This document shows, piece by piece, positions 16,235-57,163 of a stretch of DNA of 64,000 nucleotides; within the stretch, counting starts at the first letter, position 1, and every line of letters starts with the position of its first letter. A program made the position numbers and the translations under genes. This stretch comes from Lingula anatina (lineage: Eukaryota; Animalia; Brachiopoda). Below the pieces are notes generated by a model. It made no database searches and was not told where the DNA came from. It saw nothing but the letters and a program-made list of their open reading frames with translations. Location of the stretch: NCBI GenBank assembly GCA_051362555.1, contig CM120646.1, forward strand, positions 7,006,001-7,070,000, read 5' to 3'.

Positions 16235-20712
<4,478 letters not shown>

Positions 20713-25100: not shown

Positions 25101-28100
25101 AAATGGTACAATCAAAGTTAAGTTCATCGTAAGGTAGGTCAAAGGTCAATTTCAAGGTCACAGTAAATTGCCAGTATATGACTTCCTATTCAACTTTAAT
25201 GGTAACTATGGACCTATCTCTGCCAGTTTTGTAGATAAAAGGGAAGAAAAATATGCAAAGTTCAGTTCATGGTGAAAAGTAGGTCAAAGGTCAATTTCAA
25301 GGTCACAGTAAAATTGCCAGTATATGACTTCCTATTCAACTTCAATAGTAACTATGGACCTATCTCTGCCAGTTTTGGAGATATAAGGGACTAAATGTTT
25401 TAATTTTGGAGTTACCATAATGTGCCATAAATTTCCTACAGAAAAAATTAATTAAAATAAAGAAAAGGTCATTTTGGTCAAAATTCTTGAAATAAGAGGT
25501 GTTCTGAAGTTCCAGATGTTCAAATTTGATGAAATAATGTCATTTTTGACCACAAGTTGTCTGCTTTGCCAAGCCTTATGTTTTATTTTTCCGGAGTTCA
25601 AAATTTATTATCCATTACAGTACTGCACATTTTGCTTTCACCACCAATATGTGCCAGTATATGACTTCCTATTCAAGTTCAATAAAAACTATGGACCTAT
25701 CCAGTTTTGGAGATAAAAGGGAAGCAAAATTTGCAAAGTTCAGTTCATGGTGAAAAGAAGGTCAAAGGTCAATTTCAAGGTCACAGTAAGATTGCCAGTA
25801 TATGACTTCCTATTCAAGTTCAATAGTAATTATGGACCTATCTCTGCCAGTTTTGGAGATAAAAGGGAACCAAAATTTGCAAAGTTCAATTCATGATAAA
25901 AAGTAGGTCAAAGGTCAATTTCAAGGTCACATTTAGATTGCCAGTATATGACTTCCTATTCAACTTCAATAGTAACTATGGACCTATCTCTGCCAGGTTT
26001 GGAGTTAAAAGAGAAAGAAATTAGCAGAGTTCAGTTCATGGTGAAAAGTAGGTCAAAGGTCAATTTCAAGGTCACACTTAGATTGCCAGTATATGACTTC
26101 ATATTCAAGTTCAATAGAAACTATGGACCTATCTCTGCCAGTTTTGGAGATAAAAGGGAAGCAAAATTTGCAAAGTTTAATTCATGGTGAAAAGTAGGTC
26201 AAAGGTCAATTTCAAGGTCACATTTAGATTGCCAGTATATGACTTCCTATTCAAGTTCAATAGTAACTATGGACCTATCTCTGCCAGGTTTGGAGTTAAA
26301 AGAGAAAGAAATTAGCAGAGTTCAGTTCATGGTGAAAAGTAGGTCAAAGGTCAATTTCAAGGTCACACTTAGATTGCCAGTATATGACTTCCTATTCAAG
26401 TTCAATAGTAATTATGGACCTATCTCTGCCAGTTTTGGAGATAAAAGGGAACCAAAATTTGCAAAGTTCAATTCATGATAAAAAGTAGGTCAAAGGTCAA
26501 TTTCAAGGTCACATTTAGATTGCCAGTATATGACTTCCTATTCAACTTCAATAGTAACTATGGACCTATCTCTGCCAGGTTTGGAGTTAAAAGAGAAAGA
26601 AATTAGCAGAGTTCAGTTCATGGTGAAAAGTAGGTCAAAGGTCAATTTCAAGGTCACACTTAGATTGCCAGTATATGACTTCATATTCAAGTTCAATAGA
26701 AACTATGGACCTATCTCTGCCAGTTTTGGAGATAAAAGGGAAGCAAAATTTGCAAAGTTTAATTCATGGTGAAAAGTAGGTCAAAGGTCAATTTCAAGGT
26801 CACATTTAGATTGCCAGTATATGACTTCATATTCAAGTTCAATAGAAACTATGGACCTATCTCTGCCAGTTTTGGAGATAAAAGGGAAGCAAAATTTGGA
26901 AAGTTCAGTTCATGGTGAAAAGTAGGTCAAAGGTCAATTTCAAGGTCACATTTAGATTGCCAGTATATGACTTCATATTCAAGTTCAATAGAAACTATGG
27001 ACCTATCTCTGCCAGTTTTGGAGATAAAAGGGAAGCAAAATTGGCAAAGTTCAGTTCATGGTGAAAAGTAGGTCAACAAAGGTCAATTTCAAGGTCACAT
27101 TTAGATTGCCAGTATATGACTTCATATTCAAGTTCAACAGAAACTATGGACCTATCTCTGCCAGTTTTGGAGATAAAAGCGAAGCAAAATTTGCAAAGTT
27201 TAATTCATGGTGAAAAGTAGGTCAAAGGTCAATTTCAAGGTCACATTTAGATTGCCAGTATATGACTTCCTATTCAAGTTCAATAGTAACTATGAACCTA
27301 TCTCTGCCAGGTTTGGAGTTAAAAGAGAAAGAAATTAGCAGAGTTCAGTTCATGGTGAAAAGTAGGTCAAAGGTCAATTTCAAGGTCACATTTAGATTGC
27401 CAGTATAAGACTTCCTATTCAACTTCAATAGTAACTATGGACCTATCTCTGCCAGTTTTGGAGATAAAAGGGAAGCAAAATTTGCAAAGTTCAGTTCATG
27501 GTGAAAAGTAGGTCAAAGGTCAATTTCAAGGTCACATTTAGATTGCCAGTATATGACTTCATATTCAAGTTCAATAGAAACTATGGACCTATCTCTGCCA
27601 GTTTTGGAGATAAAAGGGAAGCAAAATTTGCAAAGTTCAATTCATGGTGAAAAGTAGGTCAAAGGTCAATTTCAAGGTCACATTTAGATTGGCAGTATAT
27701 GACTTCCTATTCAAGTTCAATAGTAACTATGGACCTATCTCTGCCAGTTTTGGAGATATAAGGGACTAAATGTTATAATTTTGGAGTTACCTTAATGTGC
27801 CATAAATTTCCTACAGAAAAAATTAATTAAAATAAAGAAAAGGTCATTTTGGTCGAAATTCTTGAAATGGCAGGTGCTGTGAAGTTCCAGAAGTTCAAAT
27901 TTGATGAAATAATGTCATTTTTGACCACAAGTTGTCTGCTTTGCCAAGCCTTATGTTTTATTTTTCCAGAGTTCAAAATTTATTATCCATTACCGTACTG
28001 CACATTTTGCTTTCACCACCAATATGTACTTTTTGATACAGCGTAGCTCGAAAACTGTATGGAATACAAAAAAAACGGAGACCACCTCCAGTGTTGGGCT

Positions 28101-35643: not shown

Positions 35644-35912
35644 TTAGGCTATTCCTCTTGGTATTATAAATGATATGTAGTCAGCTGTGGCTCCCCAGCT
35701 AGCTCTGTATAGTTGAAACAATGTCACCCAGGTAATGAAGATAGCTGTCCATATTATTGCTCCTATTAATGACTTGATTACATCTGAAATAACAAGGAAG
35801 AAAATAATGACAATAACATGCATGAGTGACAGAGGACATTTACTTGAGTAACTATGTTAGCTATTTGAGTGTCCAAATGTATTGAAGTGTGGGTGTGTGT
35901 GTGTGTGTGTGT

Positions 35913-35971
<59 letters not shown>

Positions 35972-36716
35972 GGGGGAGGGGAGAGAAGGAATATGCTTAC
36001 ATGATCTAATCTGTTGCTGCTGTTCATAGTGTTGTTTGATAAAGGCCTCTTTGAAAAACCACACAAAATTGACCACCCACAGGAAAGGAAGGAGTGCAAA
36101 ACCACCTGCAACACAATAACATAAATTTATATTCATTTACCATGGTCTACAACATACATTTACATGACAAAATAAATAAAAGGGTCTTTAATTAGAGATC
36201 TATGTAAAATATCAAGATTTATAAGTGAATGTTTTACTAACCAATGATTAATATCTATACTAGTATTATAGATTATGACTACCAGGGGCGGATCCAGAGA
36301 TATTTTCTGACAGTCTTCCATATTATATTTGTTGGTCCATCCTCCATTTTTTGACCGTCTTCCGACAGAAAAAATTAGATACCCGTCAATGTAAACTTGA
36401 AAATCTGACCGTCTTCCGGAAGACCCAGAAGACGGCCTAAATCCGCCCCTGACTACCATCTTCAAAATGAATTTAAGTAACATAACCCATTTTCTCTGGC
36501 TTTAGTCTCTCTTTAATCTAACTGATTAAAAACTTTCATTCTGACCCCATTCAATATTTAAAATACTAGTAATATTCCACTGTAATATCATTCTATACTT
36601 TAATGGTTGTATTCGAGAGAGAGTCTCTGACTTGGAATAGGTCTTGTTGTCTTACCATAGAAGTATTTTTTGCAAAGCTCCACTTTGTCCTCTACCTTCA
36701 TTTTCTGGAGATCCAT
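35644..36716 (-). CDS. PSENEN: Gamma-secretase subunit PEN-2, 101 aa
   Basis: Exons 36656-36716, 36001-36105, 35644-35783. [42 protein letters not shown]...[10 protein letters not shown]. Acceptor at 36723 and a donor at about 43320 imply a non-coding first exon near 43321-43430. Confidence 0.97.
36283..36451. mobile_element. 169-bp hAT-like MITE with 5-bp TSD
   Basis: Same element as 23042-23210, with TSD ACTAC. A decayed relative lies at about 37050-37215. Confidence 0.9.
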
Positions 36717-43320: not shown

Positions 43321-43654
43321 CTTACTGGACTTCTACTTGGAATTGAACGTGGCTTTTAATAGTTTCTACGAACAGTTTTATCGATAAGTAAAGTTTTAGA
43401 AGCCTGACTAACACTTCCACCTTGTGCTTCCGTGTGTAGTGTGAAGTACGTCATCAAATTGTGCTTACCCATGTTATTTTAACGAAAATAAGCGAACATA
43501 TTTAATGTAATAATTTAAGATCAAAATACACAAAAAAATCCGATTTAGATATTTTTTGCAGTGTTTCTTAATTTTCCAGTTAATTTTCTAAAATCTTCAT
43601 AATGGCATTAATTTCAACGAGAAAAAGCGAGATTTGTATTGGAAGCTTGGTAAA
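43321..43654. promoter_or_regulatory. Bidirectional promoter of PSENEN and U2AF1
   Basis: PSENEN 5' UTR donor at about 43320 (-) and U2AF1 ATG at 43655 (+). CTTCCG and TACGTCA motifs. AAAATGGCGG at the U2AF1 start. Confidence 0.65.
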
Positions 43655-46600
43655 ATGGCGGAATACCTCGCTTCGATTTTCGGCACAGAAAAAGACAAGT
43701 AAGTGGCATGCTTGGTGTCCTTGGATGTCAAAGGGACAGATTATAGACACTTTAGAATTTAAAGCATTAAATGCAGTGGAAGTCGCCTTATGCAATACCT
43801 TTATTTTTGGTAGAAATTATCCTTTACCTGTGCCGACTTGTAGGTCACAAAGGAGAAGGCATGGTTTTCGTATGAGAAATTTTGCTTGATGTCAGTGTAA
43901 CGAGTATTTCAGAATGGTTAGAGTTAATTGTTCTTTATTTTCACATATTTGTAAAAGGAGACGCTTGTGTTTGACTTAAAGTCCCGATAGTATTGGACCT
44001 TGCACTTGTTAAAAAAAAGCTTTGTTATGATGAAAAATGTATCGGTTATCGATTTTGCTGCTCGGCAGAGATGTGTTCATTGTCCATTCTTTCAACATGA
44101 AGTGTAGTTCTCTTTTTAGTAGAAGTTACAAAACAAATTTACATTTTTGCTCTTACATTTTTTCTCCATCGCAAAAAAAAATGACGCAGAGATATACAGC
44201 TGATTTGTTGGTGATCAATTAGCAAACATTTAGTTGGGTGATTTTATTCTGTTCAAGAATGTATTTTTTTTAAGAAGAACCTGTCTGACATTTATAAAGC
44301 AGTAAATTTGATAACCTTTCACATAAGTGCCTCTTATACAAGTAATTTGTTTTGAATATAATTTTCATGTTAAAGGTAGTCACCAAAATGGTAAGATACA
44401 CTCCAAAAACACATTTCAGTGGAAAAAAAAAAATAATAATGTTGATTTTGAAGCAGTTAAGTTGTACATTTCATGTTTAAAAACTATATAGTAACTTTTG
44501 TTGTCTTTAAGTTCTGGTTTAGATGTAATCTCAAGTTAAGAATTTTAAAAGAAAAAAAAAGAGCAGTGTCTTTTTCGATTTCTGTAGTTATTGATTTAGC
44601 TCAATTTGTACATGTTATGTCCTGTGGACTACATCATCACTGAAAGTTTAATATTATTTTGTAGAGTAAACTGCTCGTTTTACTTCAAGATAGGCGCATG
44701 CAAGCACGGCGAAAGGTGTTCCAGGTTACACAACAAGCCAACCTTCAGTCAGGTAAACTCACACTCAAGATTGTGCACACGATGCACAGGGTTACGACAT
44801 GTAGACTCCCTACATAAAAAAAAAGGTTTAAAACTTTCCAGGCTAGTGTCCTACAACTGTATTCTTTATATTCCAGAGTAAACTGCTCTTTTTACTTCAA
44901 GATTGGCGCATGCCGCCATGGAGAAAGATGTTCACGGTTGCATAACAAGCCAACTTTTAGCCAGGTAACCATAATTGATAAGTAGGGAGTCGCTTGTGTC
45001 CTCCGCGGCCTGCTACAATCAGGAGTAAGGTATTGTGGGTGGATCAAATGCCTGTTGATTTTTTCGTTTGTTAAATTGACAACTAATGCAATAATTTCTT
45101 TGACAGCTTTAATCTTCTGATTTGTAGCCCACAGAACACAATTTTGGTAGAATGAGAACGGGATGACCAATTAAGCAGGTTATTTTTTTGTAGAATTTCT
45201 TTTTCCATTCATTCTATTTATACAGACACAGGTCCGTATTGTAAGTTAACCTGTCACCTCACGTCACAAAGACGAAGCAGCAGTGTCCCCCAGGTTCAAA
45301 CTTTGAAGCTCAAACTCTCTTTGTTCTGTATTCTCTGTTTCAACAGGTACTTGTGCAGATACTCTCCTCAAAAGCAGTGTCCATATGCAGACTTGCTCAA
45401 AGAGAAGGCCATGAACATGGATCAGTATGGGAAGAATGACCTCTCCCCTGTCAACCTTATGAATTATACAGGATTTTTTATTTGTTATTCATTGATCTTT
45501 TCTCTATTTTATTTATTATTATAATTTTTTTTTCACATTAAAACCTCTGAAATTAAAATTTTTCTTGGATACATTGAGATTTCGTTCAGATATTGCTCTT
45601 TTTTATTTCCCTTTTGTTTTGATCTTTGAAAAAAATATTTGAAAAAAAAAATGCCAATTTAAGTAAACATTTTGAAAAAGAAAGTGCACCAACAATATTA
45701 AGATCACTGGGTTGCTCTATCCATGTGCCTGGTCTGGAATTTGACTTTCCCGTGCTCTGAATGTGGATACTGCATTTTGGTCAGAGTTGTGTGAGCCTTA
45801 TATTGTAGATCTGACCAATGAAACCTGGGAATGTCCGGCCCCAAAAGTGCATTAGCAGGGTGTTCTTAGACCCAACAGCCAATATTGTCGTGCCTTGAAT
45901 GCAGATACTTCTGAAAAATATGAAGAGTGGTTTGAGCCTTGCTTTGTAGATTTGACCAATGAATCCCCGGGTGCATATATGAAAGAATTATATTTTTTTA
46001 AACAACAGGACTCGTGTTCAACCAGTATTTATGGAATTGATTGTGTGATTGTCAGTTAATGGGTGCCATGTTTTCCTTTCTTTTATCAGACAATCCTGCT
46101 GGTGAATTTGTATCATAACCCACAGAATACAGCACAGACTGCTGATGGCTCACATAGTAAGTAGTGTGTAGACTTAAGAACTAATCTGGGCTTTTAATTC
46201 TCAATACTTTGCTCAGTTTATGTAGTAGTGAATCTGTTAGCGGAAACAAGTTTCTTTCACTTAGTGGAAGATGTAGATGATGATTCTGCAAAATAAATAA
46301 TTTATTCTGGACTGTAAGCAAGCAAATGTCTGTACATTTACACCATGGCAAGTGAGTAATGAGTCTGATATGAACATTAAAAGTATCCAGATTCCTGCCT
46401 TTCCTTGGACTAACTGGTTGTCTTGATTCATTTCAGCCAGTATCACAGATGTTGAAGTACAGGAACACTACGATGAGTTCTTTAATGAAGTATTCACAGA
46501 GGTCGAGGATAAGGTATGATATAAGGATTTTATAAATGCCGAGAACTTGAAAATTTTTTTGAGCATTTAACATTTTCTTTTGTAAATTGTTTTAAGTTCG

Positions 46601-54807: not shown

Positions 54808-55274
54808 GTTATAACGTTATTTTGTGTTTGTGATACTGACAGGCTACCTGTAACCCTGTGTATGAGATGTATAATGGAGACATAGGCCTATTGCTCTGCC
54901 TGTGTTTTCCAAACAGCTAGCAGGCCTATAGGCCCTATAGGCCTATACCGGTAATATGTGCACACAACAAGAATTACAATAATAAATAAATAAATAAATA
55001 AATAAATGAAAGTGTAAATGAGAATAACCTGTAGGCTATATTTTAAAGTTTTGAAAAAAGTATACATTGTGCTTATGATTCAAATTAAAAGATGCCAGCT
55101 AGGCCTACATTATAAAGAATTGCCAGTACTGGGTAACATAATATTTTTGTTTCCTTATTTATTCATTTTTTAAATTTATTTATTTATTTATTTATTTTTG
55201 TTGTTTTCTCTCTTTTGTTTTTCAGTTGTTCAGGATCAGAGTAAACAAGACTGGCACATCCTAGATAAACAACA

Positions 55275-57163
55275 ATGGTCATCTCATACATTCAAAATTT
55301 CTTTAGGATGATTTATCTCTTCGTGGTAGACATGTACAATTTCCCAGATTTACGTAGATACATGTTGACGGTATTTAGAAAGAGAATCTTTGAGAGGAAA
55401 CACGTTGATACTCGGACAATATACGATGATGAAGGTAACCCATTAAGATCGGCTTGCGTCAAGGGGAAGTTCGTCCCCGATTGGCCACTAGTAGTTGACA
55501 ATATCGACAATTACGACAAGTTCCACGCCCGCGGTGACGACATATGGATTGTAAACTGGCCAAAATCGGGTAAGAGCTTGTTTTGTGTTAATTGTAAAAA
55601 CATGGGTATATTAATACCGGTATTTCGCCAACGAAAGAAATTATAAGCACGCAGCAGAGTAAGGATATATCTTTTATTATTAATTTATTTTAAATTGAGA
55701 GCATTGTTTGAGAACTGTTTTACAGTTTTTTCAAAATATGCATTTTCAATATGGATTTGAAACGTCCTATACGAATGATGACAAAGTAAAACTTACTTAT
55801 AGGAAAACTTATTACTAGATAATTAAAAAAAAATGTTTTTATGCGTCAGGCACTCACTGGATGTTTGAAGTTGTTACGTGTCTGACTTCCGGCAAAGCAC
55901 AGCTTCATGACGGTATCAAAGAAAACACCATGTTCCCCGAGTTCTGTCCGGTGGATATTTTAGACGACATGACGTCACCAAGAATTTTAGACACGCATAT
56001 TCAGCTGGAGCTCTTCCCAGAAGAGGCACTGAAGACGTCGAAGATCATTTACACAGTCCGAAACCCCAAAGACGCCTTTGTGTCCGGTTACTTTCACTTG
56101 TCAAGAGATAATTTAGTGGGCTTCCGTGGTGGTTGGAATAATTTTTTCAGGACATCTATGAAAGAAATCAAAGGTGAAGGTTTGAAAAAAAATTTAACAA
56201 AGATATACTTTCCGTGTTCTATAAGCTATTCGATTTCCTTGCCACATTAAACTTATGTTGGTTTCTATTATTGATGAAAGTAATGATTTAGATTTGAAAC
56301 AAATTTAGATTTTGTTTGATGTTGACCAATTTGAACGTTCAGTTTTTATTTATTTTACTGTATTTATTTATTGTTTCTTTTTTTGATAGATAGACAATAA
56401 GTTGTCTGCATTTTTGCTACTTGCAGAGGTTCCATACGGCACGTGGTATGATCACGTGAGAGGGTATTTAGCTGCGCTCGAAAACAAACCGAACGCTCTT
56501 GTCGTCAAGTATGAAGACATGATAAAGGTAGTCAAACATTGCTTGGCGTGGATCACTGTATAGAAGTAAAATTTCTGACTGCTTGATAGCTTAAATTTCC
56601 GTGAATTTTGGCATATTGCATTCGCCGTTTTATTTCGTTCCTGCTTTTGTTTTTAAAAGGGACATTAAAAGCTTTGTAGAATAATTCATTTATTTATTTT
56701 AAGGTACCTTTTCCGCCTAGTTGTAGAATCATTTAAATGCTTCCAGGATCTCAAGAAAGAAGTACGCCGCATTGCAGAATTCATTGGCCACCAAAATTCC
56801 GAGGAGTTTTATGATGAAGTGGCAAGAGTGTGTTCCTTTGATCACATGCAGAAATCAAAGAAAGAACTGAAGATTATATGGAAGCCAGGAGGATCCATGT
56901 ACAGAAAAGGTAGACTGGACTGCCATCTATCGTCAACCATCAAAATAATTTGTTGTAAAAGGGTCATGCTGAACCGTTTTTGCGCTTAACTCAAAGTGCT
57001 AAACTGGGACAGTCGGCTACGTAAACGTGACTTTGCCAAATGGCCAAGGACATTTAACGAACGGTTATCCAAAATTTTGTTGACTTAATTGTATGGATTT
57101 TGTCACCCATTGCTGTAAAAAGACTGTACAGGAGATATCAGTTTCTTCTACTGGTATGGGCAC

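What the first reader, a model, noticed from the sequence alone, without database searches (positions are those of the whole stretch)
44609..45000. Competing RNA pairings around U2AF1 exons 2a/2b: a central docking site with upstream and downstream partners
Seen: the inter-exon segment 44781-44813 has two partners. (1) Downstream of 2b: GACUCCCUAC (44804-44813) is the perfect complement of GUAGGGAGUC (44982-44991), extended by GACAUG (44796-44801) pairing with UGUGUC (44995-45000). This would loop out exon 2b. (2) Upstream of 2a: UACAUGUU-AU-GU-CCUGUG (44609-44626) pairs with CACAGG-GU-UAC-GACAUGUA (44785-44803), plus CAUC/GAUG. This would loop out exon 2a and lies near its likely branch region. 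The two duplexes share 44796-44801, so they cannot both form fully. A local hairpin AUGUAG/CUACAU (44799-44815) also competes. Established: docking-site/selector pairing controls mutually exclusive exons in Dscam1 and 14-3-3zeta. Inference: a compact two-state RNA switch selects the U2AF1 ZnF1 isoform. I know of no description of this for U2AF1.
Basis: partly seen in the sequence, partly recalled or inferred. Interest (0 to 1): 0.9.

Follow-up and report, generated by a model that had tools for sequence, protein, structure and literature searches.

The report
Twin zinc-finger exons in Lingula U2AF1
In the lamp shell Lingula, the gene for the splicing factor U2AF1 has two copies of one exon, RNA reads use one copy or the other, the two proteins differ only at a residue that touches the splice-site RNA in the solved yeast protein, and predicted RNA pairings around the exons likely help keep both copies from being used together.

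Summary
The complementarities lie where stated. The gene is U2AF1; its proteins match Lingula anatina RefSeq isoforms X1/X2. Exons 2a and 2b (88 nt each) are mutually exclusive: four RNA runs gave 174 2a-to-3, 138 2b-to-3, 10 2a-to-2b and no listed 1-to-3 joints, too few for decay alone in the deepest run. The isoforms differ only at residue 28 (Lys/Arg), which stacks on the 3' splice-site -2A in yeast U2AF23. The central/downstream duplex beats shuffles (1 of 250). The upstream duplex is borderline (16 of 250; 1 of 250 in a second allele) and partly a by-product: upstream and central elements are duplicated copies of one palindromic stretch. A strict two-state switch is not supported: the upstream duplex and the 10-bp downstream core fit together in the best fold. 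No covariation test was possible, since no second species with both exons was found. Similar repeats in human U2AF1 had no effect when mutated. Best reading: srp/ATE1-like loop-out pairings acting in transcription order, untested. The scan's index held no earlier U2AF1 note.

The parts
43655..43698 (+). U2AF1 exon 1, coding part (residues 1-15, phase 2 end)
   Evidence: RNA joints from 43698; translation matches P0112/P0121
44609..44635 (+). Upstream element U; predicted to pair with 44781-44803; direct paralog of the central element
   Evidence: block 44593-44651 aligns with 44769-44831, score reached by 6 of 2000 shuffles
44640..44644 (+). Candidate branch site of exon 2a (A at -22), 8 nt downstream of U; inferred from consensus only
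44665..44752 (+). Exon 2a, 88 nt, ZnF1 with Lys28 (RefSeq isoform X1)
   Evidence: 112 reads 1-to-2a, 174 reads 2a-to-3 in four runs; P0121
44690..44752 (+). Short form of exon 2a from a cryptic acceptor 25 nt inside the exon; stop at codon 16
   Evidence: joint 43698-44690 in X15, X18, X19 (1, 6, 6 reads); 6 loose ends carrying exon 1 in X20
44781..44803 (+). Central element, 5' part: partner of U
   Evidence: two fixed differences in the second allele lie here
44796..44813 (+). Central element, 3' part: partner of D (core 44804-44813, extension 44796-44801); also forms the local hairpin 44799-44815
   Evidence: no difference listed in X20 or X5
44877..44964 (+). Exon 2b, 88 nt, ZnF1 with Arg28 (RefSeq isoform X2)
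   Evidence: 87 reads 1-to-2b, 138 reads 2b-to-3; P0112
44982..45000 (+). Downstream element D, 18-36 nt after the 2b donor
   Evidence: no difference listed in X20 or X5
46090..46156 (+). Exon 3 (67 nt, single copy here; the exon that is duplicated in vertebrates)
   Evidence: joints

Best explanation
Lingula U2AF1 carries a tandemly duplicated exon 2 whose two copies are spliced as either-or alternatives giving Lys28 or Arg28 in zinc finger 1, and two predicted long-range RNA duplexes likely help enforce the choice by looping out one exon each in the order in which they are transcribed, rather than as a strict two-state switch. Shown: both exons are used, double inclusion and double skipping are rare, both would shift the frame, and the isoforms differ at one residue. 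Predicted by folding: U can form as soon as the central element is made; a local hairpin then competes for the centre; D takes over once the sequence behind 2b appears. Inferred: when U holds, it sits just upstream of the 2a branch site and loops out 2a, so exon 1 commits to 2b before D can close. When the hairpin wins, 2a is used first, and D then loops out 2b with its acceptor and donor, which blocks 2a-to-2b joining and brings the 2a donor forward to exon 3. Decay of frameshifted RNA removes part of the errors. D is the better-supported half. U likely arose for free when a palindromic intron stretch was duplicated with the exon.
For: Joints in four RNA runs of three studies: 174 2a-to-3, 138 2b-to-3, 10 2a-to-2b, no 1-to-3 row; X20 agrees (46 and 15 loose ends, no 2a-to-2b joint listed). 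Under independent inclusion, skip times double falls short at least 1681-fold in X12, needing at least 41-fold decay of both products; at least 36-fold (6-fold decay) in X18 plus X19. A product with a stop at codon 16 is visible in X18-X20, so the 1-to-3 product (stop at codon 20) should be visible too. D: 1 of 250 shuffles, pair probability 0.65-1.0 once transcribed, no change at its 32 positions in X20. U: three natural differences in the second allele break one pair and add others, net -21.4 to -26.7 kcal/mol, reached by 0.7% of 3000 random triples; that allele's U is matched by 1 of 250 shuffles. At 3 of 7 aligned positions the two paralogous copies differ on both arms so that pairing between copies is kept and pairing within a copy is lost or reduced to G-U. 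Precedent with the same logic: srp exon 4 (PMC4691838, sections 5, 8, 12) and ATE1 R1R3 and R2R5 (PMC7797038, section 14 and passages). A steric block is unlikely: 124-nt intron with AGs at -53, -37 and -32 before the 2b acceptor.
Against: No compensatory pair change was seen; G44789C breaks a U pair with no change at 44622. The elements are no more conserved than their flanks: 3 fixed differences in 79 nt against 3 in 206; invariance of D has a chance of 0.14-0.52. The allele test is symmetric: starting from the second allele, 49% of 2000 random triples are as stable as the window allele, so the window's U could be decaying. U in the window: 16 of 250 shuffles; a self-dimer of the central element is nearly as stable (-20.0 against -21.6), and chimeras of the two paralogs reach U in 122 of 2000 (core) and 234 of 2000 (block). 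U probability falls to 0.04 or less when other flanks are included. At equilibrium D is always formed, yet 2b makes up 138 of 312 downstream joints, so the model leans on kinetics that were not measured. The stronger-U allele does not lower the 2a share. In human U2AF1, conserved inverted repeats predicted to loop out exon Ab did nothing when deleted or swapped (PMC5224494, section 17).
Confidence: 0.45

Rival explanations
1. The pairings are incidental. Exclusion comes from proteins and competing weak splice sites, with decay of frameshifted RNA cleaning up, as for the vertebrate U2AF1 exons Ab and 3.
For: No covariation seen; elements not more conserved than flanks; whole-region z -0.11; both duplex energies reached together by 87 of 2536 placements of real window sequence; human precedent of inert inverted repeats; in X18 plus X19 a 6-fold decay would be enough.
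Against: A perfect G+C-rich 10-bp match 18 nt behind the 2b donor, unique in the window, 1 of 250 shuffles; X12 needs at least 41-fold decay, which rules out decay alone but not a protein-based block.
Confidence: 0.25
2. Only the downstream duplex works (it blocks double inclusion and tunes 2b); the upstream duplex is a leftover of duplicating a palindromic intron stretch.
For: U is not significant in the window allele; U and the central element are direct paralogs; 2 of the 3 element differences fall in the U-only half of the centre; a similar motif lies before a single exon 2 in L016, where no strong partner was found (-15.0 kcal/mol); 2a share unchanged with stronger U.
Against: U is significant in the second allele (1 of 250); between-copy compensation at 3 of 7 positions; cryptic acceptor use in 2a is higher where U is stronger (18 of 77 against 1 of 84), though study and tissue are confounded.
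Confidence: 0.2
3. One reading: the centre pairs either upstream or downstream, never both, and that choice alone sets the isoform.
For: The duplexes share 44796-44801, and the extension and U trade off in the ensemble (0.27 against 0.44); the 1-to-3 product expected from a double loop-out is not listed in any run.
Against: U and the 10-bp D core are nested, not crossing, and both stand in the best fold; the D core alone is -20.1 kcal/mol; the ratio does not follow U strength between alleles.
Confidence: 0.1

Closest known systems
Drosophila serpent (srp) exon 4.1/4.2 bidirectional pairing (PMC4691838; abstract and sections 5, 8, 10, 12 read)
   Same: Two duplicated exons; an upstream duplex loops out the first and a downstream duplex loops out the second; both inner partners lie in the inter-exon intron.
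   Different: In srp there are four separate elements whose pairings cross (a pseudoknot if both form), they are conserved across species, and mutagenesis confirmed them. Here the inner partners are in nested order with a 6-nt overlap, both can form, and nothing is tested.
Human ATE1 exons 7a/7b, elements R1-R5 (PMC7797038; section 14 and passages read)
   Same: U resembles R1R3 (upstream of the first exon with the inter-exon intron); D resembles R2R5 (inter-exon intron with the intron behind the second exon).
   Different: In ATE1 the paralogous pair is R1 and R4, which compete for R3, and R2R5 spans 30 kb and sets the ratio. Here the paralogs are the two partners of U themselves, and D spans 168 nt.
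Vertebrate U2AF1 exons Ab and 3 (PMC5224494; passages and section 17 read, supplements not seen)
   Same: Same gene, tandem exon duplication, either-or splicing, double and no inclusion carry stops.
   Different: Another exon (67 nt, UHM, seven residue changes) against 88 nt of ZnF1 with one change; there a local stem-loop and weak branch points govern, and the long inverted repeats were inert.
Dscam1 and 14-3-3zeta docking site and selectors (as summarised in PMC6071210, passages read)
   Same: Intronic complementarity next to mutually exclusive exons.
   Different: Those have one docking site in a flanking intron and several alike selectors competing for the same bases; here the two partners are unlike and bind mostly different halves.
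RefSeq Lingula anatina U2AF35 isoforms X1 (XP_013399964.1) and X2 (XP_013399970.1)
   Same: Both protein products are already annotated.
   Different: Automatic annotation only; no paper on the exon pair, the Lys28 form or the pairings came up.

Membership tests
Mutually exclusive exons from tandem duplication | Homologous adjacent exons of equal length and phase | tested here: met
   88 nt each, 73 of 88 identical, 12 synonymous and 1 non-synonymous codon differences
Mutually exclusive exons from tandem duplication | Each used alone in RNA; both or neither rare | tested here: met
   174, 138, 10 and no listed 1-to-3 joint
srp-type bidirectional pairing | Downstream duplex that loops out the second exon, beyond chance | tested here: met
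   as a prediction: 1 of 250 shuffles; weaker with whole flanks, 52 of 1000
srp-type bidirectional pairing | Upstream duplex that loops out the first exon, beyond chance | tested here: inconclusive
   16 of 250 in the window allele, 1 of 250 in the second allele
srp-type bidirectional pairing | The two duplexes cross, so only one forms readily | tested here: not met
   nested order; U and D core both in the best fold
srp-type bidirectional pairing | Elements conserved and covarying across species | tested here: inconclusive
   0 of 48 metagenome loci hold two exon 2 copies; one divergent allele only, no compensatory pair
srp-type bidirectional pairing | Disruptive and compensatory mutations change and restore splicing | not testable with these tools
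   needs a minigene
Dscam/14-3-3zeta docking site and selectors | Several alike selectors compete for the same docking bases | tested here: not met
   flank before 2a against flank after 2b: p 0.92; overlap of partners on the centre is 6 of 33 nt
ATE1-type module | Paralogous elements before each exon (R1, R4) compete for one inter-exon element | tested here: not met
   the paralog of U is the central element itself; only a 5-bp possible partner lies before 2b (44846-44850, read from the sequence)
Steric exclusion by a branch point near the upstream donor | Branch point within about 50-60 nt of the 2a donor (threshold recalled) | tested here: inconclusive
   124-nt intron, AGs at -53, -37, -32 argue for a branch point near the 3' end; no canonical motif found there and none mapped; 10 reads show the intron can be spliced
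Vertebrate U2AF1 Ab/3 exon pair | Duplicated 67-nt exon 3 encoding part of the UHM | tested here: not met
   the duplicated exon here is exon 2 (ZnF1); exon 3 shows one acceptor and one donor

The most novel reading that the evidence does not exclude
Lingula switches its core 3' splice-site reader between an Arg28 and a Lys28 zinc finger that read the AG and the -3 base differently. The switch is a kinetic RNA device born when a palindromic intron element was duplicated with the exon and the two copies co-adapted to pair with each other. Use of the cryptic AG in 2a and double inclusion feed back on U2AF1 level. It would be one of several independent U2AF1 exon duplications in animals (exon 2 here, exon 3 in vertebrates, a ribbon worm and unnamed loci, exon 4 in molluscs).
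Probability: 0.15. Interest if true: 0.8.

Novelty: new variant of a known kind. Interest (0 to 1): 0.55.

Why it matters
U2AF1 reads the AG at the end of most introns, and single-residue changes in ZnF1 re-route splicing in human cancers. Here a natural either-or exon swaps Arg28 for Lys. In yeast U2AF23 Arg28 stacks on the -2A and positions His29 on the -3 base, and R28S binds about tenfold weaker. Lys28 occurred in 1 of 219 proteins fetched (this isoform) and 1 of 48 loci. If the pairings are functional, this is a compact (400-nt), easily mutated test of how tandem duplication creates RNA-guided exclusivity, with a geometry (nested, paralog pairing with paralog) that differs from srp, ATE1 and Dscam. 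It would also contrast with human U2AF1, where similar repeats were inert.

Tried and rejected
No whole genome is held for the window. The run search listed no RNA holder of the stretch; RNA runs came in by species label and were laid. X11 (another organism) laid nothing and X10 only 36 bases, so neither gave an ortholog; X5 is identical to the window but for one poly-A letter and may not be independent. The metagenome scan gave 48 loci with one exon 2 each within flanks of up to 1.5 kb, many cut short; 32 distinct ones had flanks long enough to compare. The records behind five loci could not be searched further. Rfam: 0 matches at E up to 1 in 43600-46200. I first read the joint to 44690 as misplaced reads (note); one search showed it is a real cryptic acceptor. 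Whole-flank duplex energies were a blunt test; the windowed test on fixed segments is the fairer one. The control on constitutive exons had correct borders for 2 of 5 exons only and is not used. Rejected: assembly artefact (both exons in RNA, 15 of 88 letters differ, whole stretch in one X5 contig); dead exon copy (both used, only 1 of 13 differing codons changes a residue); local repeat family behind D (each 10-mer once in 64 kb). Look-ups in the scan's notes returned nothing on U2AF1.

Full report
Gene and organism. The region is U2AF1 on the + strand: exon 1 coding part 43655-43698, exon 2a 44665-44752, exon 2b 44877-44964, exon 3 46090-46156. The window's exons 2b to 4 match P0112, Lingula anatina U2AF35 isoform X2, letter for letter over the stretch compared. 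The other member of that cluster, P0121 (isoform X1), differs at one residue and corresponds to 2a. So both products are already in RefSeq. The two exons are 88 nt, 73 of 88 identical, with 13 differing codons of which one changes a residue: Lys28 in 2a, Arg28 in 2b.

The exons are mutually exclusive in RNA. Four runs of three studies were laid, 6 to 26 in 100 of each run read. Joints, in the order X12, X15, X18, X19: 1-to-2a 75, 8, 15, 14; 1-to-2b 56, 4, 8, 19; 2a-to-3 124, 10, 14, 26; 2b-to-3 91, 3, 15, 29; 2a-to-2b 2, 0, 4, 4. No 1-to-3 joint was listed (a row needs 3 reads from 2 starts in one run). A fifth run, X20, gave 46 loose ends from 2a and 15 from 2b carrying exon 3, and no 2a-to-2b joint. 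Double inclusion stops at codon 67 and skipping at codon 20. If the exons were included independently, skip times double should equal 2a-only times 2b-only. Taking at most 2 skip reads per run, it falls short at least 1681-fold in X12 and 36-fold in X18 plus X19, which would need 41-fold or 6-fold decay of both products. A product with a stop at codon 16 is readily seen in X18-X20, so early-stop RNAs are not invisible there. I infer an active exclusion mechanism on top of decay. Steric exclusion is unlikely but not excluded: the intron is 124 nt, holds AGs at -53, -37 and -32, and is spliced in 10 reads.

The pairings. All blocks are as described. The downstream duplex D (44804-44813 with 44982-44991, extended by 44796-44801 with 44995-45000) is -26.9 kcal/mol, its core alone -20.1. 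On segments fixed beforehand (124 nt before 2a, the whole inter-exon intron, 124 nt after 2b; best pair of 34-nt windows) D is matched by 1 of 250 shuffles and the upstream duplex U by 16 of 250. A blunter test on whole flanks gave 52 of 1000 for D and 218 of 1000 for U, and real window sequence slid along both strands matched D in 5.0% and U in 46% of 2536 placements, both in 87. The region as a whole is not unusually structured (z -0.11). So D is a fair candidate and U a weak one on energy alone.

Not a strict two-state switch. U ends at 44803 and the D core starts at 44804, so they nest. The best fold of 44590-45030 holds both; in the ensemble D core is 1.0, U 0.44, U with D core 0.44, D extension 0.27. 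With wider flanks U drops to 0.04. Folding growing prefixes gives an order: U at 0.87-1.0 when the RNA ends at 44810; the local hairpin at 0.92-0.93 from 44880 to 44970; D at 1.0 by 45005. Since 2b is used in 138 of 312 downstream joints although D is always formed at equilibrium, any role for D must be kinetic: it can only act on transcripts that have not yet committed to 2b. This is inference.

Origin of U. The stretch before 2a (44593-44651) aligns directly with the central stretch (44769-44831); 6 of 2000 shuffles score as well. The duplication therefore took about 70 nt of intron with it, and the two partners of U are copies of one self-complementary element. At 3 of 7 aligned positions both arms differ between copies in a way that keeps pairing between copies and spoils pairing within a copy; the register is my choice, as the aligner places its gap elsewhere. 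Mixing the letters of the two copies at random reaches the observed energy in 122 of 2000 (core) and 234 of 2000 (block), and the central element pairs with itself almost as well (-20.0 against -21.6). Co-adaptation is thus suggestive only. [quoted passage not shown]

Natural variation. Runs X18-X20 (one study) carry other alleles. In 44570-45030, X20 shows six fixed differences at depth 5 to 7: 44589, 44631, 44767, 44768, 44789, 44795. None falls in D or in either exon. G44789C breaks a U pair with no partner change; A44631G and C44795T add pairs; net U goes from -21.4 to -26.7 kcal/mol, reached by 0.7% of 3000 random triples, and that allele's U is matched by 1 of 250 shuffles. Against this: seen from the other side, 49% of random triples leave U as stable as in the window; elements are not more conserved than flanks (3 of 79 against 3 of 206); and the 2a share is the same (86 of 145 in X18-X20, 124 of 215 in X12). 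The same runs use a cryptic acceptor 25 nt inside 2a more often (18 of 77 against 1 of 84, Fisher p 8e-6) and show more double inclusion (8 against 84 downstream joints, 2 against 228; p 0.0009). A masked or altered 2a branch region would fit, but allele, tissue and study are confounded.

No cross-species test. The metagenome scan returned 48 loci with the same exon borders; 0 of 48 hold a second exon 2 in the DNA fetched. X11 laid nothing. Two loci resemble the stretch before 2a: L016 (0 of 300 shuffles) and L011 (2 of 300), out of 32 compared. L016 has one exon 2 in the DNA held and no strong partner behind it, so part of U may be an older sequence signal, perhaps tied to the branch region.

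The protein difference. Residues 1-47 align without gaps to S. pombe U2AF23 (4yh8, 7c06). There Arg28 stacks on the -2A, contacts the 2' hydroxyl of -3U and holds His29 (PMC7505975, passages), and R28S binds nearly tenfold weaker (PMC4536312, passages). Lys28 was found in 1 of 219 proteins fetched, the Lingula isoform itself, and in 1 of 48 loci, L011. That Lys changes binding is inferred, not shown.

Comparison. It works like srp exon 4, if it works: upstream pairing favours the second exon, downstream pairing the first, and losing both gave skipping and double inclusion (PMC4691838, sections 5, 8, 10, 12). It is not a member by the crossing criterion. ATE1 offers the same two loops with other geometry. 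The main caution is human U2AF1, where invariant inverted repeats predicted to loop out exon Ab changed nothing when deleted or swapped (PMC5224494, section 17; its Supplementary Figure S9 was not seen). Searches for U2AF35 with Lingula, U2AF1 with R28K and brachiopod with mutually exclusive splicing and RNA structure found 0 papers; searches listed none on this exon pair by title or abstract. The library lacks most subscription journals. Rfam had no match.

Verdict. The exon pair and the single Lys/Arg swap at an RNA-contact residue are shown. The pairings are real complementarities; D is beyond chance, U borderline. A role in exclusion is likely for D and open for U, and the either-or docking picture should be replaced by an ordered, kinetic one. 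Interest 0.55.

Noticed in passing
window 44690: Cryptic acceptor 25 nt inside exon 2a is used with exon 1 (0, 1, 6, 6, 6 reads in X12, X15, X18, X19, X20) and gives a stop at codon 16; the matching AG in 2b (44902) shows no listed joint. A possible feedback route for an AG-reading factor.
   Followed up: partly
window 44965-46089: The intron between 2b and exon 3 is covered by RNA reads in X15, X18, X19 (depth up to about 19 against 18-60 on exon 3) but hardly in X12, while intron 3 has none: slow or held-back splicing behind the exon pair.
   Followed up: no
L034:524-590 and 1095-; L036:1804-1870 and 2652-2718: Two unnamed animal loci carry a second, diverged copy of U2AF1 exon 3 with an AG before it (in L036 67 nt with a GT after it); Lineus longissimus isoforms X1/X2 also differ only in exon 3. 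Exon 3 duplication is thus not confined to vertebrates.
   Followed up: partly
P0051/P0046, P0078/P0075, P0095, P0206: Mollusc U2AF1 isoforms (Mercenaria, Gigantopelta) differ by two homologous versions of exon 4, and gene models of Mya and Tegillarca hold both in a row: a likely third duplicated exon. U2AF1 looks like a repeated target of exon duplication.
   Followed up: partly
L016:1461-1475; L011:1440-1490: Sequence before the single exon 2 resembles the window's element U (13 of 15 letters in L016). L011 also encodes Lys28. Possible old signal before U2AF1 exon 2.
   Followed up: partly
window 43716, 44618, 44847, 44997: The hexamer TGTCCT occurs four times within 1.3 kb around exon 1 and the exon pair, of 15 sites in the window; the copies at 44847 and 44997 share 10 of 11 letters. 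Could be a protein site or further partners of the centre.
   Followed up: no
window 45680-46055: Runs X18 and X19 differ from the window at 24 or more of about 376 intron letters (only 40 of 85 rows shown): a clearly diverged population under the same species label.
   Followed up: no
window 25900-26772: Three near-identical tandem units of about 291 nt show up as repeated reading frames.
   Followed up: no
window 55269-56989 (+), 17191-18470 (-), 35861-36136 (-): Exon-sized frames that look like a sulfotransferase, a sorting nexin and PEN-2; names recalled from the translations, not tested.
   Followed up: no
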